Of a stretch of DNA of 64,000 nucleotides, positions 12,243 through 50,132 are shown in pieces. The position numbers were made by a program, and so were the translations under genes. How positions within the stretch are numbered: the first letter of the stretch is position 1; every line of letters begins with the position of its first letter. The notes under the pieces were generated by a model, which worked only from the letters and a program-made list of their open reading frames with translations, did no database searches and was not told the DNA's origin. The DNA is from an uncultured Planctomycetia bacterium (GTDB taxonomy: Bacteria > Omnitrophota > Gorgyraeia > Tantalellales > Tantalellaceae), in the NCBI GenBank assembly GCA_964565425.1, contig CAZMEZ010000003.1, forward strand, positions 18,991-82,990, read 5' to 3'.

Positions 12243-13334
12243 TTATTCCGCCATTGCGTAGGTATGGCCTTTATCGTATCCCTTATAATGCGCTTCCAGT
12301 ATCTCCTGGGCCGGCTTGTTCTGCGGCGTGAACTGACGATTATAAGTTCCTCCCGCGTAGACGTTAGTATCCCATTTCCACCAATAGACGCCCGCGAGCC
12401 AGCGTTCACCCCAGACCGTTTCGAAAAAAGCCCTGTAGCATTTGGCCTGCATTTCGGGGTCGGCGTTGCCTTCCAGTCCGTTCTGCCAGGGCATGTAAGG
12501 GGCGTGGGAAGCGCTCGGATATCCTATTTCGGTGAAGATTATAGGCTTATTTATTTTCTTTTGCCATATTTCCAGGTCTGACTTCCATTTTTCCCAGCCT
12601 TTTTTAAGGTCGTCAACGGTCGGGTCGGATTTGTAGGTCAGAGGGAAATAGGCATCGATCCCGACGTAGTCAAGCTCGTCCCAGAATCTTATGTTCTTGA
12701 AGTTGTCCCAGTTCGCCGCGTAAACGAGCTTTCCCGGATATATTTTACGGACCTTGGCTATCAGTTCTCTCCATTCGGCTTCCTTTTGCGTGGTAAAGGA
12801 GAGTTCGGTACCGATGCAAAAAAGTTCAACGTCGAGATCTCTGGCCAAACGCGCATATTTCAATATGAATTTGCCGTACGCGTCGAACCATTTCTTCCAG
12901 TCGTTTTCGCATGCGAAACCTATGTCCGCGCGCCAATATGTGCCGTCATATTTGTCAATGAGGTCGATATGCGGTTTCAGCGCGACTTTAATGCCGAGTT
13001 TATGGGCCGTTATGATGACGTGACGCAGGCTTCTCGAGCTTGGGCTCTTGTCCGTGGCTTTTATTTCTGTCGAATTATATTTTTCCTGATAATGGGTCGC
13101 GCATACCGAGATATATTCAACGCCGAGGGAGGCGAGTTTTTTAAGGGATTCATCGGAAAATTCAGAGGCAAAACGGTCCTTGTCCCAGGTAACGTAGCAT
13201 ACCCCCTTTTGCAACGGCAAAAATGCGGTTTCGGAATGAAGATCGCAGGGGGGGAATAGGAGCGACATAATTAAAACCGTTGCCAACAAGACGCTCGATA
13301 TACCGTTCTGTTCCTTATCACGGCGCATTGACAT
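12243..13334 (-). CDS. Secreted TIM-barrel glycoside hydrolase (GH5/GH113-like)
   Basis: Signal peptide after MSMRRDKEQ; candidate catalytic glutamates in CIGTELS (acid/base) and IIFTEIGYPS (nucleophile). Start placed at ATG 13334 with RBS GGAGG 6 nt upstream, because the longer track start at 13433 runs into the leader terminator. Confidence 0.65.
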   Translation of the reverse strand: MSMRRDKEQNGISSVLLATVLIMSLLFPPCDLHSETAFLPLQKGVCYVTWDKDRFASEFSDESLKKLASLGVEYISVCATHYQEKYNSTEIKATDKSPSSRSLRHVIITAHKLGIKVALKPHIDLIDKYDGTYWRADIGFACENDWKKWFDAYGKFILKYARLARDLDVELFCIGTELSFTTQKEAEWRELIAKVRKIYPGKLVYAANWDNFKNIRFWDELDYVGIDAYFPLTYKSDPTVDDLKKGWEKWKSDLEIWQKKINKPIIFTEIGYPSASHAPYMPWQNGLEGNADPEMQAKCYRAFFETVWGERWLAGVYWWKWDTNVYAGGTYNRQFTPQNKPAQEILEAHYKGYDKGHTYAMAE

Positions 13335-13345
13335 TTTATCCTCCG

Positions 13346-13394
13346 GAAAAATAAAAAACCCTATTCGATAAAGGTCGCTCCATATCGAATAGGG
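13346..13394 (-). terminator. Intrinsic terminator 13 nt upstream of the hydrolase RBS (putative riboswitch expression platform)
   Basis: On the minus strand, an 11-bp perfect stem CCCUAUUCGAU...AUCGAAUAGGG is followed by UUUUUUAUUUUU. Confidence 0.6.
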
Positions 13395-13435
13395 CTGCAA
13401 GAATCCGGCAATAAATGCCAACATACATTGCATAA

Positions 13436-25696: not shown

Positions 25697-26686
25697 CTAT
25701 TCTTTACTCGGGTAGATCCTGACGTTATCTATATATATCGGTCCCGAGTAGGCAGGTTTATTCGATTCCACCCTTACCGCTATTTTGCGGATGTCCGCCT
25801 TGAATTCCTTGCTTACCGTGGTTCTCCTCCAGGTGGCGCTGTCGCCCTCGGATATATCGGCGGATATCGTGGTCCATTCGCCGGGTTTCATACGCGCGGT
25901 CCGCGTCATTTCCGTCCAGCGCCAATCTTCGCCGATGGTCAATATGATCTTTGCCCGCAACCCTACCGGGGCTTCCGGGGGCAGATAAATATCCACGGAG
26001 ATCGTGTCATAGCCCGTGAGGTTCAGGAAATGCTGTATCTCGACAATAGCCGCGGACCATTTGTCACCGGGAAATTCGGCGTAGATCCCCAGGCTTCCCG
26101 AACCGTTACTTGAGGCGCCTTCCACGGGTTCCATGGTACGGGCCACGTGGTCGGCCTTATCGTAAGTCCAGGAGGGTATTTCCCAGCCATTATCGTTGGT
26201 CTCAAAGTCGTAAAGCAGTTTTCCTCCTGACGCGGCGTTGGTGGCTACCGGGACATCGTACTTGTTCCAGTCATTAAAGAGCTTTTCCCGCACTTCTGGT
26301 TCCTTCTGGGGTGTCCTTGCTTCACGGATCTCGGGCTTTTTCGCCGAAACTAAATTTTCAGCGGGTAATGTAAATATTTTTTTTGCGGGTTTCGGGTCGA
26401 GAGAAATAGCGTATTTTTGCGACAGGAAATATCCCGCGGACAGAATTGCGCCCACCAAGACGACAGAAACCGCAAGCAGAACCTTGCGACCTACCGGTCG
26501 GGAAGGGCGCTTTTCCGGTTTTTTCCCCGCCGGTTTCTTTTGTCCCTCTTGGGGTTTGGCGCTCTTTTTAGCCTTTTCCTCCGGCTGTTCTTTCTTATCG
26601 CCGGTTTCAGGCTTTTCCGCCACGTTTCCGAAATATGCCCTGGAAAGCTCCAGATCTATTTTGTCCTGGATTTGCCGGTTGTTCAT
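25697..26686 (-). CDS. Type-II membrane-anchored protein with an extracytoplasmic beta-sandwich (CBM-like) domain
   Basis: K/P/E-rich N-terminal tail, a single TM (VLLAVSVVLVGAILSAGYFL), then a ~180 aa domain ending ...GPIYIDNVRIYP, typical of carbohydrate-binding beta-sandwich modules. Confidence 0.6.
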   Translation of the reverse strand: MNNRQIQDKIDLELSRAYFGNVAEKPETGDKKEQPEEKAKKSAKPQEGQKKPAGKKPEKRPSRPVGRKVLLAVSVVLVGAILSAGYFLSQKYAISLDPKPAKKIFTLPAENLVSAKKPEIREARTPQKEPEVREKLFNDWNKYDVPVATNAASGGKLLYDFETNDNGWEIPSWTYDKADHVARTMEPVEGASSNGSGSLGIYAEFPGDKWSAAIVEIQHFLNLTGYDTISVDIYLPPEAPVGLRAKIILTIGEDWRWTEMTRTARMKPGEWTTISADISEGDSATWRRTTVSKEFKADIRKIAVRVESNKPAYSGPIYIDNVRIYPSKE

Positions 26687-26965
26687 ATTTATTATTCTAA
26701 CACATTTGCTGTAAAATGGCTACAATAATCTACTTTTGAGGGTTTGTATCAATATTTTTTTAGAAATATCTTATTTTCCCCAAAAATATCTCCCCCCCTC
26801 AAGGGTATGACCATTTTGACATATGGCGGCAAGGGGGAACATTATATTTATTTTTTATTACCGCCTATTTACAACATAATAATAATATGTTATACTTTAT
26901 GCCAAATAGCACAAAATATAAGGCAATACGACCTTTAATACCACAAAATATATGGGGGGCGGGAT

Positions 26966-28012
26966 ATGAAAATAATCTCTGTAGCTAATCAAAAAGGCGG
27001 TTGTGGTAAGACAACGCTTGCAGTTAATGTGGCGGCCGCTCTCGCACGGATGGGCAATAAGACTCTCTTGATCGACCTGGACCCGCAGGCGCACGCGACT
27101 TTCGCTCTTGGTTACCTGAAAAAACATTCTGAAAGGAAGACTTCTTATGATATTTTCCGCGCCCGTTTCGACAATGTTGACGCTCCGCTGGAAGAGATAG
27201 TCATAACGGACAGGGAAAGACTGTCTTTTATCCCGGCGAACATGATGCTGAGCGCCGCTGAAATAAACCTCGGCAGCGTTAACGGGGCAGCAGCCATACT
27301 GCATAAGACCCTGCAGGACCCGTTTTTCGCCGAATATGACTACGTGATCGTGGACTCGCCGCCGAGTTTCGGTTTTCTTACGCTCAATTCCATGTATGCG
27401 GCTGACATGATAATAGTGCCGGTGGACCTGAGTTATTTTTCCTTCAACGGCATAAACAGTATTTACAGGGTGACCGGTCTGCTCAATAAGGAAACCGCAA
27501 GGACCCCTTCGGTGTTCTTCGTGATCAACATATATGACAAGCGTTCCAAATTCGCAAAGCAATTCGATAACGATGCGGGTAAAAAGCTCGGCCCGTATCT
27601 TCTCCCGACGAAGATACGCGCGAGTGTACGCCTCAGGGAAACGGCCAGGGAGGGGAAGACGATATTCGAGTATGATCCGAAGAGCCCCGTGGCCCTTGAT
27701 TTTTATAACCTGACAAGCGATATCCTGGCAGCCAATAACAGGGAGATAAAAGAGGTCGTAAAAGAGTTCGCGCTCTATGCGCCGGATGCGGGATCCGTGT
27801 ATGTTCTGGGTGATTTCAACAGCTGGCAGAAGGCCGACAGCAGCAGGCTGAGCAAGCTCGAGAACGGCCACTGGTCGGCCCACTTCACGCTGCCCAGCGG
27901 ACGCACCTATCGCTATAAGTTCCTGGTGGATGAAGAATGGACGCACGACCCGGAAAATTCCGCGCTGGAAAGGAACGCTTTCGGCACCGCCGATTCTATT
28001 CTGAAGCTGTAA
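26966..28012 (+). CDS. ParA/Soj-type P-loop ATPase fused to a C-terminal CBM48 (AMPK-beta glycogen-binding-like) domain
   Basis: Deviant Walker A KGGCGKT in MKIISVANQKGGCGKTTLAVNVAAALA...LLIDLDPQ. The C-terminal ~85 aa (VYVLGDFNSWQKADSS...GHWSAHFTLPSGRTYRYKFLVDEEWTHDPENSALERNAFGTADSILKL) follows the CBM48/AMPK1_CBM consensus almost residue-for-residue. Confidence 0.85.
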   Translation: MKIISVANQKGGCGKTTLAVNVAAALARMGNKTLLIDLDPQAHATFALGYLKKHSERKTSYDIFRARFDNVDAPLEEIVITDRERLSFIPANMMLSAAEINLGSVNGAAAILHKTLQDPFFAEYDYVIVDSPPSFGFLTLNSMYAADMIIVPVDLSYFSFNGINSIYRVTGLLNKETARTPSVFFVINIYDKRSKFAKQFDNDAGKKLGPYLLPTKIRASVRLRETAREGKTIFEYDPKSPVALDFYNLTSDILAANNREIKEVVKEFALYAPDAGSVYVLGDFNSWQKADSSRLSKLENGHWSAHFTLPSGRTYRYKFLVDEEWTHDPENSALERNAFGTADSILKL

Positions 28013-28030
28013 TCCGTATTTTGTGACGCA

Positions 28031-28072
28031 GAGAGCAACGGGGAGGGAGTCCTTGCCGTTGCTCTCTTTTTT
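28031..28072 (+). terminator. Intrinsic terminator after the ParA-CBM48 gene
   Basis: GAGAGCAACGG...CCGUUGCUCUC followed by UUUUUU. It lies inside the over-extended N-terminus of the arfB track ORF. Confidence 0.7.
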
Positions 28073-28121
28073 ATCGGGTCCGCACAAAAGATCCTCGAAG
28101 GGGGCTTTAAAATACCGTTTG

Positions 28122-30667: not shown

Positions 30668-30802
30668 TCAAAAGATCGCCCTCGCCAGTTAATATTAAGA
30701 TTGTTTTTGCTTTTTACGGGATAATGATATATTATTGTTACAGAGGTATTACAATAATAATAATATATTCTTGTTCATTTGCGCAAAAACAAGGAGGCGC
30801 TA

Positions 30803-31036
30803 ATGGAAAAAGATGTATTTGTATTCGAGAAGAACAAATACCAGGATGTAAAGGTTCGCATATCCGAGTATCAGGGCAATGACGTCATTGATATGCGGAT
30901 ATGGACACAGCCTCCTCAGGGCGAAGAAAAGGTTCCCACGGGAAAAGGGATAAACATAAATGTGAGACTTTTCCCGAAGCTCAAGGAAGCCGTCGAAAAA
31001 CTCGAAAAAGAGCTTAAAGATAGTAACATGATCTGA
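30803..31036 (+). CDS. PC4/YdbC-like ssDNA-binding protein
   Basis: 77 aa; KNKYQDVKVRISEYQGNDVIDMRIW...PTGKGININ pattern of bacterial PC4-like proteins; RBS AAGGAGG. Confidence 0.55.
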   Translation: MEKDVFVFEKNKYQDVKVRISEYQGNDVIDMRIWTQPPQGEEKVPTGKGININVRLFPKLKEAVEKLEKELKDSNMI

Positions 31037-31101
31037 CATCCCCGCGGGACATCAGATCGTTCCTCCCCGGAAAATAGGCGACCCGAAGGATCGGGTCGCG
31101 C

Positions 31102-31566
31102 GTGGCAGGCGATGCTGATATGACTGGAGAGATCCCCAAAGAAAAAAGGCGATACATCAGGCACCTTCTCGTGAATCCCCTTGAATTCAAGGTCGAAGAG
31201 GGGGGTCAATACGAAAAGACAAGAACGGTCGACGTGAGCGAGGGCGGACTCATGTTCCTCGCGAAAACCAAAGTGGAGAACGGCGCGTTCATACAGCTCC
31301 AGATGCCGCTGTATGACAAGGTTTTCAAGATAAAGGCGAAGGTCGTGCATACCGAGAAAGACGAGGGCTCCGGACTTTTAAGAGTGGGTGTCGCTTTTGT
31401 CAATTATGCCGACGCATTCAAGGTAAAACTCATCGAACAGATCTATCTTATTGAGGAATACCGCGTCCTCAGGTCGCTCCAGACCGGGAAAGAAATGACC
31501 CTCCAGGACGCTTCCAAGGAATGGATCAAGCGTTATTCCGAACGCTTCGAAAAACTCTACTGGTAG
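31102..31566 (+). CDS. PilZ-domain protein (putative c-di-GMP receptor)
   Basis: RRYIRH (RxxxR) followed by DVSEGG (D-x-S-x-GG) PilZ signature. Confidence 0.65.
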   Translation: MAGDADMTGEIPKEKRRYIRHLLVNPLEFKVEEGGQYEKTRTVDVSEGGLMFLAKTKVENGAFIQLQMPLYDKVFKIKAKVVHTEKDEGSGLLRVGVAFVNYADAFKVKLIEQIYLIEEYRVLRSLQTGKEMTLQDASKEWIKRYSERFEKLYW

Positions 31567-46159: not shown

Positions 46160-47098
46160 ATGGATAAGCTGATAGAAGTATTGCGTAAATTCAGGATCGG
46201 CGTGCTCGCGGGGGGCGAATCCAGCGAAAGGGAGATCAGCCTCAAGAGCGGCAAAGCGGTCTTTGAGGCCCTGCGGAAGGCCGGACTGGATCCCTTATTC
46301 CTGGATGTGAACGAAAAAGACTTTTCTTCCGTTATCGAAAAGTCCGGGATAGACGCGGCCTTTATCGCTCTTCACGGCAGGTTCGGAGAAGACGGAACCG
46401 TCCAGAGGATGCTCCAAAAACGGAACATACCTTATACGGGCTCCGGCCCGGATGCCTCGGCTCTCGCTCTGGATAAAATGGCCTCCAAAGAACAGTTTAT
46501 CGCTCGCGGCCTTAACGTGCCCGAGTACATCGTAGTATACCGGGGCGAGGATATATCGGAACTTGACGTGTGGTTCCCTTGCGTGGTCAAACCAAGATTC
46601 GAGGGGTCGAGTATCGGGCTCTCCGTTGTGTCTTCGGAAACGAAGCTCCATCAGGCGATAGATAATGCGTTCATGTTCGGGGAAGAGGTGATAGTGGAGA
46701 GGTTCGTTCCCGGGAGGGAAATAACCGTAGGCATACTGGACGAAAAAGCCTTACCCGTTGTCGAAATAGTGGCGCATGAAGGTGTATACGATTTTGACGC
46801 GAAATATCGATCGGACTCCACCGAGTATGTCGTTCCCGCAAAGCTTGACGAGAGCGATAGCCGGTTCGCGCAGGAAACGGCCCTGGAGGCGCATAAGGCG
46901 CTCGGGTGTAAAGGCTTTTCAAGGGTGGACATGAGGCTGTCGGATAACCATGAAATATTCGTGCTGGAGGTGAACACGATACCCGGGCTTACCGAGAGGA
47001 GTCTCCTGCCGATGGCGGCAAAGGCCGCGGGGCTGGACTTTCCGGGATTATGTGTTAAGATGCTTCTCGTGGCTTTCGAGAAAAGAAAGACAAAATAG
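46160..47098 (+). CDS. ddl: D-alanine--D-alanine ligase
   Basis: ATP-grasp fold with Ddl motifs (IALHGRFGEDGTVQ; EVNTIPG). Confidence 0.9.
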   Translation: MDKLIEVLRKFRIGVLAGGESSEREISLKSGKAVFEALRKAGLDPLFLDVNEKDFSSVIEKSGIDAAFIALHGRFGEDGTVQRMLQKRNIPYTGSGPDASALALDKMASKEQFIARGLNVPEYIVVYRGEDISELDVWFPCVVKPRFEGSSIGLSVVSSETKLHQAIDNAFMFGEEVIVERFVPGREITVGILDEKALPVVEIVAHEGVYDFDAKYRSDSTEYVVPAKLDESDSRFAQETALEAHKALGCKGFSRVDMRLSDNHEIFVLEVNTIPGLTERSLLPMAAKAAGLDFPGLCVKMLLVAFEKRKTK

Positions 47099-47144
47099 TG
47101 TTTTACGGGAACGTTGATGTGTTCTATTTTTTGAGGAGGGACAG

Positions 47145-47942
47145 GTGGCGAGAAAAAGAAGCTCCAGAAAAAAAGGGAAAAAACCCGCGAGGACCGCGCC
47201 GTCATACGGCAGGTCTTTTTTGGGGAAACCCGTTCTCGGGATCCTGATAATCGTTGCTTTGCTGGGAGGGGCTGTTTACGGGATGCGGTATTTTTTTCTA
47301 AATAGCGATTTTTTTACCATAAGGGAGATATCGGTCAACAAGGACCGGGATTATTCCTTTCGCAAAGGAGAAAAGAAACTGGAGAACATATATCTCGGGC
47401 GCAATATATTCTCAGTTGACCCCAGGCAGGTGCGGACGATAGTGCAGGATGATTACCCGCAGTTGAAGAAAGTCGAGGTGCGGAGGAATTTTCCCGGTGT
47501 GCTGGAAGTAGACATAGTTTCGAGGAGGCCGGCAGCGGTCATAGATTCCGGGGGCGGCATCATAATAGATTCCGAGGCGGTCGTTCTTGCTGTCGGGGAG
47601 AGGTCCGATGATCTGGTAAAGATCAAGGGAATAAGCTTTTTCCTCAATGCCCCCTCCCGGGGCGAGAAGATAGACAACCGCGCACTTGAAACAGCCATGC
47701 TTCTTTTGGACGCGTTTCGCGAGCGGATGGGGCCGTATATGGAAAAAATTGAGTATCTTGACATCTCCGACAGGAACAATATCGTGGTCAACATCTACGG
47801 GGCCGAGGTCAAGATGGGGCAGGAAGATTTTGCGCGGAAAATATACCAGCTGAAGAACATCATGAACGATTCGAATATAAACATGAAAGACATAAAGTAC
47901 ATCGATCTTCGTTTCGAAGACGCGATAATAGCTCCGAAGTGA
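47145..47942 (+). CDS. ftsQ: Cell division protein FtsQ (POTRA domain)
   Basis: Basic N-terminal tail, single TM, then POTRA-like domain; position between ddl and ftsA. Confidence 0.75.
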   Translation: MARKRSSRKKGKKPARTAPSYGRSFLGKPVLGILIIVALLGGAVYGMRYFFLNSDFFTIREISVNKDRDYSFRKGEKKLENIYLGRNIFSVDPRQVRTIVQDDYPQLKKVEVRRNFPGVLEVDIVSRRPAAVIDSGGGIIIDSEAVVLAVGERSDDLVKIKGISFFLNAPSRGEKIDNRALETAMLLLDAFRERMGPYMEKIEYLDISDRNNIVVNIYGAEVKMGQEDFARKIYQLKNIMNDSNINMKDIKYIDLRFEDAIIAPK

Positions 47943-47951
47943 TAAAGTAAA

Positions 47952-48021
47952 GTGTTATGTGTCACGTGTCATGTGTCGTGTCACGTGATCATAACACATG
48001 ACGCTTAACACATAACACACC
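47952..48021. repeat. GTGTTAT/GTGTCAC ... ATAACAC inverted repeat (family F2, ftsQ-ftsA spacer)
   Basis: gtgttatgtgtcacgtgtcatgtgtcgtgtcacgtgatcataacacatgacgcttaacacataacacacc. Confidence 0.8.
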
Positions 48022-48028
48022 TGAAAAC

Positions 48029-49081
48029 ATGAGCAGATACTTTGCCGCTCTGGATGCGGGCAGCAGTGAAATAACGGCGGTAGCCGCAAAATGGAACAAA
48101 AACGGTGATTATTCGATCGAGGGTTTTTGCCGCTCGTCCTCCAGGGGGTTCAGCAAAGGTCTGGTCACGGATACCGCCCTGGCGATCGATTCGGTGGCCG
48201 GGGTGATGGACAAGCTTAAGGAAAAGACCGGCAAAAAAGTGCATGAACTGTACGCCGGCGTAAGCTCTACCTCTGTAGGCATCACCCCTTCCTCCGGGGT
48301 GCTTCTTCTTTCCAGGTACGGCAGGGAGGTAACCGAAACGGATATAAAAAAGTGCCTGGGGGCGGCTTCGATAATAAAGACCCCGATCGACAAGGAGCCC
48401 CTGCACAGTATAGTCCAGCGATTTTCCGTGGACGGGGAGAAAGAGATAAGGAATCCGCTTAACCTCGAAGGCGTGAAGCTGGAAGCGGAGGTCAACATAT
48501 TGACCATAAATTCCTCCGCTTTGAACAATATGGCAAAGTGTATTTCGCAAGCGGGATATTTTCCCGAGGGTTTCATTTTTTCGGGACTTGCGTCTTCTTG
48601 CCGGGTCCTGACCGATGACGACAAGAAGATCAATACATGCCTCTTGGACATAAACAGGGACCTGACGGAAGGCATGATCTTTTGTCGCGGACATTTAGCA
48701 TGGTGCAAGGTCTTTCCCGTCGGGACTGCCGACCTCGTTGAAGGAAGCGGTTCGGTCAACATGGACAACCTGGAAAAACTGGCTTCCCGCGTTATATCCC
48801 TCCAGGGGTGGAACAACGTGCGTTCCATGGTCGTGATAGGCGAAGGAGGACTTACGCACGACCTTGTTGAGTCGCTCGAGAGGTCCTTTCCTGTTCCGGT
48901 AAGGGCGGGGACCTGTATAGCCCGGCCTTTTGAAGACCTTCCTCCCGAAAGGATAGGGTACATAGGGAGCCTTGGTATACTTGACTACCTTCAGGAAGAG
49001 AATAAAGGACGGATGCGGTCCGGGAACGTCCTGAAGAGGGGTTTCCATCGCGTTCTGAGTTTTATGGATCGGTACTTCTAG
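48029..49081 (+). CDS. ftsA: Cell division protein FtsA (actin-like ATPase)
   Basis: YFAALDAGSSEITAV phosphate-1 motif and an actin-like fold; C-terminal amphipathic helix (LKRGFHRVLSFMDRYF); shorter than typical FtsA at 350 aa. Confidence 0.8.
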   Translation: MSRYFAALDAGSSEITAVAAKWNKNGDYSIEGFCRSSSRGFSKGLVTDTALAIDSVAGVMDKLKEKTGKKVHELYAGVSSTSVGITPSSGVLLLSRYGREVTETDIKKCLGAASIIKTPIDKEPLHSIVQRFSVDGEKEIRNPLNLEGVKLEAEVNILTINSSALNNMAKCISQAGYFPEGFIFSGLASSCRVLTDDDKKINTCLLDINRDLTEGMIFCRGHLAWCKVFPVGTADLVEGSGSVNMDNLEKLASRVISLQGWNNVRSMVVIGEGGLTHDLVESLERSFPVPVRAGTCIARPFEDLPPERIGYIGSLGILDYLQEENKGRMRSGNVLKRGFHRVLSFMDRYF

Positions 49082-49090
49082 ACATAAAAC

Positions 49091-49161
49091 CGTGAATTGT
49101 GAGTTGTGAATCGTAAATCGTGGTTTGATAACGACTCACGACTTACGATTCACGATTCACG
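49091..49161. repeat. GTGAATT stutter inverted repeat (family F1 copy, after ftsA)
   Basis: gtgaattgtgagttgtgaatcgtaaatcgtgg ... cgactcacgacttacgattcacgattcacg. Confidence 0.8.
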
Positions 49162-49242
49162 TATCATACCACCCCCAGCCTGTCACACTTCCATTGACAT
49201 ACCAGCTAAATTATGATAATTTTAACCATTACAATGACAGGT

Positions 49243-49323
49243 TTTAGGTGTTAGGTTCTAGGTTTTGGGCGTTATTCGCACAGTTGAGACCTAGAACCTG
49301 AAACCTAGAACCTTGAACCTAAA
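49243..49323. repeat. GGTTCTAGG/CCTAGAACC inverted repeat upstream of proC
   Basis: aggtgttaggttctaggttttgggcgtt...gagacctagaacctgaaacctagaaccttgaacct. Confidence 0.8.
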
Positions 49324-49334
49324 AAGGGATCATT

Positions 49335-50132
49335 ATGGGTAACTTCACCGTAGGCATAATAGGGTGCGGTAACATGGGAAGCGCCATAGTCAGGGGAATG
49401 GTCGAGAAGAAGGTTCTCGGCGGCGATTCTATCTTCTTATACGACAAAGATATACAAAAGTCTGAGACACTGGCGGGAAAGACCGGCTGCGCCCTTGGGG
49501 AGCTCTCCCGTATGGTGAGGGGCTCGGATCTTCTCATAATAGCCGTTAAACCGCAGGATTCGGAGGCGCTTTTTCGGGAGATAGCTTCCGACATCGCAGA
49601 TCAGACGGTAGTTTCCGTCATGGCAGGGGTAAGCATAGAGGTCATTACCGGAAGGCTGGGGAAAGTCCCCGTGGTAAGGGCAATGCCCAACATGGCGGCC
49701 GTTGTTTCCGAAGGGGTCACGTGCATAGCGCGTAATGACCTGGTAAAGAGAATGGAAGAGGTGAAAAACATTTTCACCGGCATCGGCAGTGTCGTTGAAA
49801 TAGAGGAAAAATTCATGGATGCCGTAACGGCCCTTTCGGGAAGCGGTCCGGCCTATCTGTTCTACCTGGCCGGATCCATGATCGAAGCCGCCGTTGAGAT
49901 GGGGATCGATGAGCGAAAGGCGGAGATGCTGGTAAAGCAGACACTTTACGGCGCGTCATGCCTTTTGCGCGGGGCGGACGAGAATCCGGAAAAGCTTATC
50001 GAGAAAGTAGCGTCAAGGGGCGGTACCACGGAAGCGGCGCTCGGGGTTTTCAAGGAAGACGATCTTAAGGGGATAATCAAGACGGCCATCAAAAAGGCCA
50101 GAGAACGTTCAGGGGAACTGTCGAAGGGGTGA
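49335..50132 (+). CDS. proC: Pyrroline-5-carboxylate reductase
   Basis: VGIIGCGNMGSAI Rossmann motif and ProC C-terminal dimerisation domain. Confidence 0.9.
   Translation: MGNFTVGIIGCGNMGSAIVRGMVEKKVLGGDSIFLYDKDIQKSETLAGKTGCALGELSRMVRGSDLLIIAVKPQDSEALFREIASDIADQTVVSVMAGVSIEVITGRLGKVPVVRAMPNMAAVVSEGVTCIARNDLVKRMEEVKNIFTGIGSVVEIEEKFMDAVTALSGSGPAYLFYLAGSMIEAAVEMGIDERKAEMLVKQTLYGASCLLRGADENPEKLIEKVASRGGTTEAALGVFKEDDLKGIIKTAIKKARERSGELSKG

What the first reader, a model, noticed from the sequence alone, without database searches (positions are those of the whole stretch)
26966..28012. ParA/Soj-type partition ATPase fused to a CBM48 / AMPK-beta glycogen-binding domain
Residues 1-~255 form a canonical deviant-Walker-A ParA (KGGCGKT; LIDLDPQ). 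The last ~85 residues match the CBM48/AMPK-beta GBD consensus closely: V-Y-V-L-GDFNSW..., LPSG-YRYKF-VD-EWTHDP, ...GT-DSIL. ParA-like ATPases position large cytoplasmic cargos such as plasmids, carboxysomes via McdA, chemoreceptor arrays and PHA granules. I am not aware of a characterised ParA that carries its own carbohydrate-binding module. The fusion would suggest a ParA that attaches directly to glycogen or another alpha-glucan storage granule and spaces or segregates it over the nucleoid. The gene is monocistronic: its own promoter region, a terminator at 28031-28072, and no ParB-like partner nearby.
Basis: partly seen in the sequence, partly recalled or inferred. Interest (0 to 1): 0.75.

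Follow-up and report, generated by a model that had tools for sequence, protein, structure and literature searches.

The report
Glycogen-binding ParA ATPase with membrane partner
A bacterial ATPase of the type that positions chromosomes and organelles carries its own glycogen-binding domain and is nearly always encoded next to a membrane-anchored sugar-binding protein, which points to an undescribed system for organising stored glycogen in the uncultured phylum Omnitrophota.

Summary
ORF 26966-28012 (+) encodes a 348-aa protein. Residues 1-256 are a Soj-type ParA with an intact KGGCGKT P-loop. Residues 263-348 are a CBM48/AMPK-beta glycogen-binding domain scoring above Pfam's thresholds. It is not an assembly chimera: more than 100 protein clusters from independent assemblies share the architecture, mostly from Omnitrophota, plus one Syntrophorhabdales and one Latescibacterota MAG. 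The ATPase motifs, two Soj DNA-binding arginines and the AMPK-beta1 sugar-contact residues are invariant or nearly so across 107 sequences.

The interpretation needs one correction. There is indeed no ParB, and the gene has its own conserved promoter and terminator. But it is not a lone gene. In 29 of 34 non-redundant loci the next gene upstream encodes a bitopic membrane protein (window 25697-26686, minus strand). This protein has a conserved cytoplasmic N-terminal helix (DxIDxELSRTYFG), one transmembrane helix and an extracytoplasmic CBM27/28-like beta-sandwich.

My best reading is a two-protein module that ties cytoplasmic alpha-glucan to the nucleoid and/or envelope in an ATP-dependent way. 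Glycogen binding and positioning are inferred, not shown. Glycogen genes lie near the fusion in only 7 of 35 loci. I found no paper describing this. It is a new variant of a known kind.

The parts
26966..28012 (+). Gene for the 348-aa ParA-CBM48 fusion protein, including the stop codon
   Evidence: ORF; Pfam; 107 full-length homologues; AF2 model pLDDT 91
26966..27733 (+). Soj-type ParA ATPase domain (residues 1-256). It contains the P-loop KGGCGKT (residues 10-16, nt 26993-27013), Walker A' D37/D39, Walker B D130, and the arginines R193 and R222
   Evidence: AAA_31 E=2e-47. Foldseek to Soj 1wcv/2bek/9a6n gives TMt 0.90-0.94. K10, G11, G12, C13, G14, K15, T16 and D37 are invariant in 107 sequences; D39, D130 and R193 are 106/107; R222 is R88/K17
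27734..27751 (+). Short linker (residues 257-262) between the last ParA helix and the first CBM strand. It is up to about 70 residues long and of low complexity in other subfamilies
   Evidence: DSSP of the model; long linkers in L019, L021, L031 and P0093
27752..28009 (+). CBM48 / AMPK-beta-type glycogen-binding domain (residues 263-348). Predicted sugar contacts are W287, K318, W325, F339 and D343
   Evidence: AMPK1_CBM 42.6 bits and CBM_48 30.3 bits, both above cut-off. Alignment to AMPK beta1 CBM 1z0n/4yef. W287, K318, W325, D328, G340 and S344 are invariant; N331 is 106/107; position 339 is F96/Y8/L3; position 343 is D98/N9
25697..26686 (-). Divergently transcribed partner gene ('anchor'), a 329-aa bitopic membrane protein. 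The N-terminal cytoplasmic helix motif DKIDLELSRAYFG is residues 8-20 (nt 26627-26665). A Lys/Pro-rich disordered tail follows. The TM helix is residues 68-89 (nt 26420-26485). The extracytoplasmic beta-sandwich is residues 156-325 (nt 25712-26221)
   Evidence: Pfam gives CBM27 (32.8 bits, above its cut-off of 20), Mann_GBD_bact (30.3 bits, above 27) and a sub-threshold SGBP_B_XBD hit. AF2 pLDDT 82.6, above 95 in the sandwich. Foldseek best hits are the mannanase CBM 1wky, CBM28 and CBM27. The N-motif is conserved in 60 homologues. About 195-aa paralogues of the sandwich carry signal peptides. It is adjacent to the fusion in 29 of 34 loci
26868..26896 (+). Promoter of the ParA-CBM48 gene: TTTACA, 17 nt, TG-n-TATACT
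   Evidence: Consensus scan. The same -35 / extended -10 arrangement is conserved about 70 nt upstream of the start codon in L003/L010, L008, L009, L011, L012 and L013, with a TTGCAA -35 variant in L001
26905..26955 (+). Two direct repeats, AATA[GC]CACAAAATATA[AT]GG, in the 5' leader at 26905-26923 and 26937-26955
   Evidence: the repeat finder. One copy matching ACCACAAAATATA within two mismatches recurs at the same distance from the start codon in L003/L010, L007, L008 and L012, and two copies in L013. No Rfam family matches
28029..28074 (+). Intrinsic terminator after the ParA-CBM48 gene
   Evidence: RNA fold: dG -33.4 kcal/mol, z -4.88, 0 of 200 shuffles fold as well, followed by a U-run

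Best explanation
This is a two-gene module.

**Gene 1** encodes a Soj-like ParA ATPase with an alpha-glucan-binding CBM48 module on its C-terminus.

**Gene 2** encodes a bitopic membrane protein. Its only conserved cytoplasmic element is a short N-terminal helix followed by a basic tail. Its C-terminal beta-glycan-type CBM faces outward.

**Proposed mechanism:**
1. ATP drives the ParA domain into a sandwich dimer through the signature lysine K10.
2. The dimer binds nucleoid DNA non-specifically through R193 and R222.
3. The dimer displays two CBM48 modules, which hold glycogen or another alpha-1,4-glucan particle through W287, K318, W325, F339 and D343.
4. The particle is thereby tied to the nucleoid for as long as ATP is bound.
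5. The N-terminal helix of the membrane protein acts as the ParA partner peptide. It could stimulate ATP hydrolysis, causing release at the envelope, or it could recruit the ATPase-glucan complex to the membrane.

The result would be that storage polysaccharide is distributed or anchored rather than left to diffuse.

**What is shown:** the domain identities, conservation of all catalytic, DNA-contact and sugar-contact residues, the family's spread, and the conserved pairing of the two genes.

**What is inferred:** glucan binding, DNA binding, the partner contact, and the cellular outcome.
For: - Domain identity.
- Invariance in 107 sequences of K10-T16, D37, D39, D130, R193 and R222, and of W287, K318, W325, D343 and S344. 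These align with AMPK beta1 W100, K126, W133 and N150 (residue roles are from my own knowledge of Polekhina et al. 2005). R193 and R222 align with the two arginines of Thermus Soj in the ydgRt and nvRlaea motifs (the role of Soj R189/R218 in DNA binding is from my own knowledge of Hester and Lutkenhaus 2007).
- Linker length varies from 6 to about 70 residues between subfamilies, as expected for an independent tethered module.
- The partner gene is adjacent in 29 of 34 non-redundant loci, across subfamilies whose fusion proteins are only 33-45% identical to the window's protein. The orientation changes from head-to-head to operon with overlapping stop and start.
- Partner topology: the N-tail carries a net positive charge and paralogues of the beta-sandwich have signal peptides. 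The AF2 model agrees.
- Links to alpha-glucan metabolism:
  - GH57 lies directly upstream of the partner in L023, L025 and L029, and 8 kb away in L005.
  - Phosphoglucomutase lies in L028, L029 and L090.
  - An AdpP/NudE-like NUDIX lies downstream in L018, L020, L026 and L027.
- Omnitrophota MAGs generally encode glycogen synthesis (PMC8542988).
Against: - There is no biochemical or imaging evidence at all.
- Most loci, including the window, have no glycogen gene within reach.
- Aadella gelida carries the fusion (P0053) but was reported without glycogen synthesis. That MAG is 91% complete.
- The partner's outward-facing beta-glycan CBM has no obvious role in a purely cytoplasmic glycogen-positioning model.
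- The partner's N-motif contains no conserved arginine or lysine finger like those of ParB, MinE or ParG.
- Five loci lack an adjacent partner: L005, L019, L031, L032 and L090.
- Homology between the partner proteins of different subfamilies rests on shared architecture plus weak profile matches (hhalign probability 47-83%). Pfam finds nothing in the subfamily B, C and D partners.
- pTM 0.87 suggests the CBM may be docked on the ATPase in this clade, which would fit a sensor role as well as a tether.
Confidence: 0.45

Rival explanations
1. Glycogen-sensing ParA. The CBM48 domain would work as it is thought to in AMPK, as a sensor of storage status docked on the enzyme. Glucan binding would change ATPase activity or dimerisation. 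The cargo actually positioned or regulated would be the membrane partner protein, or a process such as division or segregation.
For: The model has high pTM (0.87) with only a 6-residue linker, which suggests a fixed CBM-ATPase contact in the window's clade. The conserved membrane partner is the natural candidate cargo. In the main clade the gene sits 2-5 kb upstream of mraZ and the dcw cluster. That AMPK beta CBM acts as a glycogen sensor is from my own knowledge (McBride et al. 2009).
Against: Other subfamilies have long disordered linkers, which argues against an obligatory docked sensor. The dcw synteny is not kept outside the main clade, so it may simply be inherited gene order.
Confidence: 0.2
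2. A self-sufficient, partner-less ParA attaches directly to glycogen granules and spaces or segregates them over the nucleoid. The neighbouring membrane protein would be functionally unrelated.
For: Sugar-contact, DNA-contact and ATPase residues are all conserved. The fusion exists without the adjacent membrane gene in L005, L019, L031, L032 and L090. In the window the gene has its own promoter and terminator.
Against: The pairing in 29 of 34 loci, kept through a change of orientation and in fusion proteins only 33-45% identical to the window's, is hard to explain without a functional link. Known ParA gradient systems need a cargo-bound activator of ATP hydrolysis (family-level knowledge). 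A fused cargo binder alone would give static tethering, not spacing.
Confidence: 0.15
3. It is the organism's chromosomal Soj orthologue, acting in chromosome segregation or replication control with an accessory domain and a ParB encoded elsewhere.
For: The closest solved structures and sequences are chromosomal Soj proteins at 30-35% identity. mnmG/gidA lies within 1-3 kb of the fusion in L016 and L021, as it does for classical soj. No other ParA is present in the 64-kb window.
Against: No ParB box lies within +-6-8 kb in any of 35 loci. The NCBIfam ParA_partition score of 112.8 is below the cut-off of 180. This model does not explain why the CBM48 sugar-contact residues stay invariant. Whether a canonical soj-spo0J pair exists elsewhere in these genomes could not be checked.
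Confidence: 0.1
4. The C-terminal domain has the CBM48 fold but does not bind glycogen. It would serve as a protein-protein interface, for instance for the partner's N-terminal aromatic motif, or bind another ligand.
For: The partner motif is rich in aromatics (YFG, YF, YL). The AMPK beta CBM also makes protein contacts (own knowledge). Linkage to glycogen genes is weak.
Against: The residues kept invariant are exactly those that contact sugar in AMPK beta1. The domain also scores against GlgB N-terminal CBM48 models and against CBM20/CBM53 starch-binding models.
Confidence: 0.1

Closest known systems
Chromosomal Soj / type Ib ParA (Thermus thermophilus Soj 1WCV/2BEK, Bacillus subtilis Soj 9A6N, Helicobacter pylori Soj 6IUB)
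   Same: The fold matches (TM-score 0.87-0.94 normalised to the target). Sequence identity is 30-35%. It has the deviant Walker A with the signature lysine, Walker A' and B aspartates, and both surface arginines at the Soj DNA-binding positions.
   Different: It carries about 90 extra C-terminal residues forming a CBM48. The P-loop has an invariant Cys (KGGCGKT) where Soj has Val. No parB is adjacent. The adjacent partner is a membrane protein. It scores below the NCBIfam ParA_partition cut-off.
AMPK beta-subunit carbohydrate-binding module (CBM48; rat beta1 1Z0N/1Z0M, 4YEF)
   Same: Phmmer E = 5e-9 over 72 residues. W100, K126, W133 and N150 are matched by W287, K318, W325 and D/N343, and L146 by F339. 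All are invariant or nearly so in the family.
   Different: The domain is attached to a P-loop ATPase rather than a kinase scaffold subunit, and the context is bacterial. N150 is usually Asp here. Binding has not been tested.
McdA/McdB carboxysome positioning system
   Same: It is a ParA-family ATPase, presumably nucleoid-bound, dedicated to a large cytoplasmic non-DNA cargo. McdA structures are among the fold matches (6NON/6NOP, E~1e-17).
   Different: McdA reaches its cargo through a separate adaptor, McdB. Here the cargo-binding module is fused to the ATPase. The signature lysine is present here, whereas cyanobacterial McdA lacks it in the P-loop (own knowledge). Identity is only about 25%.
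MinD and FlhG (ParA/MinD ATPases with a built-in C-terminal targeting element)
   Same: The design principle is shared: a short C-terminal addition to the ATPase core determines which surface the ATP-bound dimer sticks to. A partner peptide such as MinE controls hydrolysis.
   Different: The addition here is a folded carbohydrate-binding domain, not an amphipathic membrane helix. No MinC or MinE is present. MinD models score far below their cut-offs (48.7 bits against 212.9).
PhaF / PhaM tethering of polyhydroxyalkanoate granules to the nucleoid
   Same: It is a functional analogy: one protein binds both a carbon-storage granule and DNA, so that granules are shared between daughter cells (own knowledge).
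   Different: There is no homology. PhaF and PhaM are not ATPases and use histone-like tails, so tethering is passive rather than nucleotide-switched.
PpfA-TlpT and ParC-ParP chemoreceptor-array positioning
   Same: A ParA-like ATPase pairs with a partner whose N-terminal segment contacts the ATPase and which belongs to, or sits at, a membrane-associated assembly (own knowledge).
   Different: The partner here is a bitopic protein with an outward-facing CBM, not a chemoreceptor or CheW-like protein. Those ATPases carry no CBM.

Membership tests
ParA/MinD (deviant Walker A) ATPase superfamily | Deviant Walker A KGGxGK[ST] with the N-terminal signature lysine | tested here: met
   KGGCGKT at residues 10-16. 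It is invariant in 107 homologues and in all 35 related loci.
ParA/MinD (deviant Walker A) ATPase superfamily | Walker A' and Walker B aspartates, and the Soj/MinD fold | tested here: met
   D37 is invariant; D39 and D130 are 106/107. Foldseek TMt is 0.90-0.94 to Soj, with probability 1.00.
Chromosomal Soj / ParA partition ATPase | Surface arginines for non-specific DNA binding (B. subtilis Soj R189 and R218) | tested here: met
   R193 (106/107) and R222 (R88/K17) align with the corresponding arginines of Thermus Soj. Actual DNA binding cannot be tested here.
Chromosomal Soj / ParA partition ATPase | Adjacent parB (spo0J) gene | tested here: not met
   No GERRxRA ParB box in the window or within +-6-8 kb in 35 loci totalling 388 kb. 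Neighbour Pfam tables show no ParBc.
Chromosomal Soj / ParA partition ATPase | Score above the NCBIfam equivalog cut-off (NF041546 ParA_partition) | tested here: not met
   112.8 bits against a cut-off of 180.
CBM48 / AMPK-beta glycogen-binding domain | Profile match above the curated thresholds | tested here: met
   AMPK1_CBM 42.6 bits against 26.8, and CBM_48 30.3 bits against 22.4. The precomputed Pfam hits agree in nearly all homologues.
CBM48 / AMPK-beta glycogen-binding domain | The two tryptophans, the lysine and the Asn/Asp that contact the glucan | tested here: met
   W287, K318 and W325 are invariant. Position 343 is D98/N9 and position 339 is F96/Y8/L3. The alignment to 1z0n/4yef is and the counts are.
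CBM48 / AMPK-beta glycogen-binding domain | Measured binding to glycogen, amylose or cyclodextrin | not testable with these tools
   This needs purified protein.
MinD | C-terminal amphipathic membrane-targeting helix and MinC/MinE partners | tested here: not met
   The C-terminus is a beta-sandwich domain. minD_bact scores 48.7 bits against a cut-off of 212.9. No minC or minE lies among the neighbours.
McdA (carboxysome positioning) | P-loop without the signature lysine, and an adjacent mcdB with carboxysome genes | tested here: not met
   The signature lysine K10 is present. No carboxysome genes lie in the window. The McdA feature itself is from my own knowledge.
Partner protein: CBM27/28-type beta-sandwich glycan-binding domain | Beta-sandwich fold matching type B CBMs, in an extracytoplasmic location | tested here: met
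   Pfam gives CBM27 E=1e-7 and Mann_GBD_bact E=6e-7. Foldseek matches 1wky, 1uww, 3acf and 1of3 at E 1e-9 to 1e-7. Paralogues carry signal peptides. The ligand is unknown.

The most novel reading that the evidence does not exclude
This would be the first dedicated, nucleotide-switched positioning system for a storage polysaccharide. A ParA ATPase would grip glycogen directly through a fused CBM48, with no adaptor protein. It would be controlled by a membrane protein whose outward-facing CBM binds an external glycan. The module would then physically or regulatorily couple what the cell binds outside to where it keeps its carbon store inside.
Probability: 0.25. Interest if true: 0.85.

Novelty: new variant of a known kind. 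Interest (0 to 1): 0.65.

Why it matters
ParA/MinD ATPases are the general solution bacteria use to place large objects such as chromosomes, plasmids, carboxysomes, chemoreceptor arrays, flagella and division sites. No such system is known for glycogen, the most widespread bacterial carbon store. No characterised ParA binds its cargo through a fused carbohydrate-binding module.

This family offers a compact, testable case, since both the surface binder and the cargo binder sit in one 348-aa protein. It also identifies a new, strongly linked partner class: a bitopic protein with a conserved cytoplasmic N-terminal helix.

The family marks a conserved feature of cell organisation in Omnitrophota, an abundant phylum of ultrasmall, largely uncultured bacteria. 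It is recognisable by an invariant P-loop cysteine (KGGCGKT), which allows easy annotation. Public records currently call these proteins only 'AAA family ATPase' or 'chromosome partitioning protein', and the partner 'hypothetical protein'.

Tried and rejected
**Explanations rejected**
1. Assembly chimera. More than 100 clusters from independent NCBI, ENA, JGI and Logan assemblies share the full architecture.
2. Membership of MinD, McdA, BcsQ, RepA or SopA. Defining features or curated cut-offs are not met (and the membership table).
3. A dcw or cell-division role inferred from synteny. The synteny holds only in the window's clade and not in the others. I kept this only as part of a rival explanation.
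4. The 396-aa antisense ORF at 26897-28087 (minus strand) is longer than the real gene but has no support. My own crude greedy ORF picker chose it over the real gene.
5. L087 first looked like a locus without the partner. The public gene caller had called an antisense ORF. The partner is present on the + strand.

**Searches that led nowhere**
6. A word-indexed search with the C-terminal domain alone returned only 2 proteins, so a search was wasted.
7. The 1.84-billion-representative profile search with the C-terminal half was dominated by proteins carrying 3-20 tandem CBM48 copies. Only about 15 single-stretch fusion representatives were visible in the top 150.
8. The afdb50 fold library was unavailable.
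9. Rfam found nothing credible in the leader or the gene.
10. Literature searches for ParA with CBM48, glycogen, glycogen granules or carbohydrate-binding terms found nothing relevant.
11. The window holds no second ParA, no ParB, no FtsZ and no glycogen genes.

**Not possible**
12. I could not inspect model coordinates. Whether the CBM sugar site is exposed, or whether the CBM occludes the dimer or DNA face, is therefore unknown.
Full report
**1. The observation**

The ORF at 26966-28012 (+) exists, starts with ATG and encodes 348 residues. A longer antisense ORF at 26897-28087 overlaps it but has no support.

Pfam assigns residues 1-177 to AAA_31 (E=2e-47), with weaker CbiA, MipZ and ParA hits. 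It assigns residues 275-335 to AMPK1_CBM (E=7e-11, 42.6 bits, cut-off 26.8) and residues 267-325 to CBM_48 (30.3 bits, cut-off 22.4). NCBIfam gives only sub-threshold hits: ParA_partition scores 112.8 against a cut-off of 180, and the GlgB N-terminal region matches residues 252-322.

Against PDB sequences the N-terminal 255 residues match ParA/Soj (8ray, 1wcv, 6iub; E 1e-32 to 1e-34). The last 72 residues match the AMPK beta1 and beta2 carbohydrate-binding modules (E 5e-9 to 1e-6).

An AlphaFold2 model built on 107 homologues is confident (pLDDT 91, pTM 0.87). It shows a Soj-like alpha/beta domain ending in a helix at residues 241-256, six linker residues, and an all-beta domain at 263-347. 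Foldseek ranks Soj structures first, with TM-score 0.90-0.94 normalised to the target.

**2. Not a chimera, and under selection**

The word-indexed protein search returned more than 100 clusters of 347-348 aa at 60-78% identity with the same domain set. They come from NCBI, ENA, JGI and Logan assemblies. Those that are named are all Omnitrophota or Omnitrophica, including Ca. Omnitrophus magneticus, Tantalella remota and Aadella gelida. A second tier lies at 40-45% identity.

The following residues are conserved in the 107-sequence alignment:

| Role | Residue(s) | Conservation |
|---|---|---|
| P-loop | Q9, K10, G11, G12, C13, G14, K15, T16 | invariant |
| Walker A' | D37 | invariant |
| Walker A' | D39 | 106/107 |
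| Walker B | D130 | 106/107 |
| Soj DNA-binding position | R193 | 106/107 |
| Soj DNA-binding position | R222 | R88/K17 |
| CBM | W287, K318, W325, D328, G340, S344 | invariant |
| CBM | N331 | 106/107 |
| CBM | position 339 | F96/Y8/L3 |
| CBM | position 343 | D98/N9 |

The HMMER alignment to rat AMPK beta1 puts W287 on W100, K318 on K126, W325 on W133, F339 on L146 and D343 on N150. That these are the cyclodextrin-contacting residues is my own knowledge of the 1Z0N work. The alignment to Thermus Soj puts R193 and R222 on the two arginines that correspond to B. subtilis Soj R189 and R218. The role of those residues in DNA binding is also from my own knowledge.

**3. Spread of the family**

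A scan of one genome per GTDB species, using the C-terminal half as query, recovered full-length fusions in many further Omnitrophota MAGs. Several are labelled 'uncultured Planctomycetia'. It also recovered one Syntrophorhabdales MAG (L019) and one Latescibacterota MAG (L032).

By identity and neighbourhood these fall into at least five groups:
- the window's main clade;
- subfamily B: L015, L018, L020, L021, L022, L026, L027, L031;
- subfamily C: L017, L023, L024, L025, L028, L029;
- subfamily D: L016, L087;
- a 42% tier: L005, L088, L089.

Full-length identity to the window protein falls to 33-38% in subfamilies B, C and D and in the two non-Omnitrophota fusions. Linker length grows from 6 to about 70 low-complexity residues in some members. 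All 35 loci nevertheless keep the unusual P-loop KGGCGKT. This is therefore a distinct ParA clade with an ancestral CBM48 fusion.

**4. Surroundings in the window**

- Upstream on the + strand lie an AddA-like helicase-nuclease, an OB/HD protein and a zincin.
- On the minus strand, head-to-head with the ParA gene, lies a 329-aa protein with CBM27 and Mann_GBD_bact hits.
- Downstream lie an ArfB-like RF-1 domain protein, Smr, an SNF transporter, PC4, PilZ, and then mraW and the dcw cluster.
- The rest of the window holds housekeeping genes, a GH113, and mreB-mreC-PBP2.
- The window contains no glycogen gene, no ParB box, no second deviant-Walker-A protein and no FtsZ signature.

The ParA gene has a sigma70-type promoter (TTTACA, 17 nt, TG-n-TATACT; 26868-26896). 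Its -35 and extended -10 elements are conserved about 70 nt upstream of the start codon in eight related loci. A strong terminator follows the gene. The leader holds two 19-nt direct repeats. One or two copies recur in six related loci, and they match no Rfam family.

**5. The unexpected part: a conserved partner gene**

I clustered the neighbours of the fusion across loci. The gene immediately upstream is the same kind of protein almost everywhere.
- In the main clade it is divergent (12 non-redundant loci, including two reached from the partner side). In L001 a 2082-aa gene has been inserted between the two.
- In subfamilies B (7 loci), C (6 loci) and D (2 loci), and in two loci of the 42% tier, it is co-directional. 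The gap is 0-25 bp, or the stop and start overlap.
- The overall tally is 29 of 34 non-redundant loci. The exceptions are L005, L019, L031, L032 and L090.

The architecture is constant:
- a short N-terminal helix. In the main clade it is DxIDxELS[RK]TYFG, with F19 invariant and D8, I10, D11, E13, L14 and Y18 at 90% or more in 60 sequences. Elsewhere it reads LADIYF, LAKVYL, LEEVFF, IEEAFF or IAQVYL;
- a basic, Pro/Lys-rich disordered stretch with a net positive charge in nearly all members;
- one transmembrane helix;
- a linker;
- a beta-sandwich of about 170 residues.

The AF2 model of the window protein agrees: a helix at 9-19, a transmembrane helix at 68-89, and a sandwich at 156-325 with pLDDT above 95. 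The sandwich is closest to the CBM of an alkaline mannanase and to CBM28, CBM27, CBM11 and CBM22. Paralogues of about 195 aa consisting of the sandwich alone carry signal peptides, and NCBI names some of them 'glycan-binding surface protein'. The sandwich therefore faces outward, and the conserved N-helix is the only conserved cytoplasmic element.

Sequence similarity between the partner clusters is weak (hhalign probability 47-83%, E 1e-4 to 1e-5), and Pfam sees nothing in the subfamily B, C and D partners. Their homology is thus an inference from architecture, position and these weak matches.

**6. Links to alpha-glucan metabolism are present but sparse**

- GH57 (516-521 aa) sits directly upstream of the partner in L023, L025 and L029. 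It lies 8 kb from the fusion in L005. It scores only weakly against branching-enzyme equivalogs.
- Phosphoglucomutase occurs in L028, L029 and L090.
- An AdpP/NudE-like NUDIX follows the fusion in L018, L020, L026 and L027.
- GH130 follows the fusion in six main-clade loci. With the CBM27-like partner and the GH113 in the window, this hints at a beta-mannan theme outside the cell.
- Williams et al. 2021 (PMC8542988) report glycogen synthesis genes in most Omnitrophota MAGs. For Aadella gelida, which carries the fusion, they report only trehalose synthesis.

**7. Mechanism**

Shown:
- a Soj-type ATPase core with all catalytic and dimerisation residues;
- both Soj-type DNA-contact arginines;
- a tethered CBM48 with an intact sugar site;
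- a strongly linked bitopic partner with a conserved cytoplasmic N-helix.

Inferred:
- the ATP-bound dimer sits on the nucleoid and uses its two CBM48 modules to hold glycogen;
- the partner's N-helix contacts the ATPase, as MinE, ParB, ParG, McdB and TlpT N-termini do in their systems, and either triggers hydrolysis or recruits the complex to the envelope.

I put 0.45 on this composite. The main rival (0.2) is that the CBM is a glycogen sensor, as in AMPK, and that the thing being positioned is the membrane protein. A Soj orthologue with an accessory domain gets 0.1. A non-glucan role for the CBM gets 0.1.

**8. Comparison and novelty**

The protein is a member of the ParA/MinD superfamily and is closest to Soj. 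It fails the tests for the Soj partition equivalog (no ParB, sub-threshold score), for MinD and for McdA. In concept it works like MinD, where a C-terminal add-on selects the surface, combined with McdA or PhaF, which place or tether a storage or metabolic body on the nucleoid.

I found no paper describing a ParA with a carbohydrate-binding module or any glycogen-positioning ATPase in the searchable library. Public records name these proteins only generically. I classify it as a new variant of a known kind, with interest 0.65. The fusion and its partner are solid. The function is untested, and the organisms are uncultured.

Noticed in passing
window 46160-50132: The dcw cluster runs ddl, ftsQ, ftsA-like (350 aa, with only the SHS2_FTSA hit) and then proC. 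No ftsZ follows ftsA, and no GGGTG[ST]G tubulin signature occurs anywhere in the 64-kb window. A published survey reports dcw genes as well conserved in Omnitrophota (PMC12283558), so ftsZ is presumably elsewhere in the genome.
   Followed up: partly
window 12243-13433 (-); L001 9255-10202; L090 7140-8087; L091 3870-4817: There is a beta-mannan theme around the module. The window has a GH113. A GH130 (mannoside phosphorylase family) lies directly downstream of the fusion in six main-clade loci. The partner's outward-facing domain is closest to mannanase CBMs and CBM27.
   Followed up: partly
L017 6875-7297; L024 4375-4734; L025 6563-6967; L028 1830-2216; L029 6580-6948; also L087: In subfamily C, and also in L087, a small protein of 119-140 aa lies near the fusion, just downstream of it in the subfamily C loci. 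It has a very Lys-rich N-terminal tail and an EF-Tu-domain-2-like barrel. This could be a second, soluble partner or a DNA-binding factor.
   Followed up: partly
window 30779-31566; L003 11909-12611; L020 and L022 directly upstream of the partner gene: A PC4-like (p15) gene and a PilZ gene form a conserved pair just upstream of mraZ in the main clade. PC4 also sits immediately upstream of the partner gene in two subfamily B loci, so it is a recurrent neighbour across subfamilies.
   Followed up: no
proteins P0123-P0271: Hundreds of bacterial proteins consist of 3-20 tandem copies of a CBM48 closely related to this one. The commonest form is about 480 aa with four copies. One is named 'glycogen-binding domain-containing protein' (Hydrogenedentota) and another comes from Elusimicrobia. 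Their function appears uncharacterised.
   Followed up: partly
window 26905-26955: Two 19-nt direct repeats, AATA[GC]CACAAAATATA[AT]GG, lie 32 nt apart in the 5' leader of the ParA gene. One copy within two mismatches of ACCACAAAATATA recurs at the same position in L003/L010, L007, L008 and L012, and two copies in L013. This may be an operator or an RNA-level regulatory site. There is no Rfam match.
   Followed up: partly
L007, L008, L009, L010, L012, L013, L016, L018, L020, L026, L030: MAGs deposited as 'uncultured Planctomycetia' (binchicken and co-assembly series) carry loci with the gene order and protein sequences of Omnitrophota. The NCBI taxon label is probably imprecise.
   Followed up: no
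L087 7312-8000: The public gene call for this contig has a 138-aa antisense ORF where the + strand encodes a clear partner-type protein (N-motif, TM helix, beta domain) ending just before the fusion gene. Automated annotation therefore under-reports the partner family.
   Followed up: yes
L001 1561-7809; L088 1-7166; L090 8286-13044: Very large genes (976 to more than 2400 aa, no Pfam hits) lie next to the module in several Omnitrophota loci. One is inserted between the partner gene and the fusion in L001. They are reminiscent of the giant Omnitrophota proteins described in bioRxiv 10.1101/2023.11.21.568195.
   Followed up: no
L016 1677-3524 (-); L021 5233-7032: mnmG/gidA lies within 1-3 kb of the fusion in two subfamilies. 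This is the classical neighbourhood of chromosomal soj, and may be a trace of the family's origin from the chromosomal partition ATPase.
   Followed up: no
window 26897-28087 (-): A 396-aa antisense ORF fully overlaps the ParA-CBM48 gene and is longer than it. It has no homologue support and is an artefact that simple longest-ORF gene calling would pick.
   Followed up: yes
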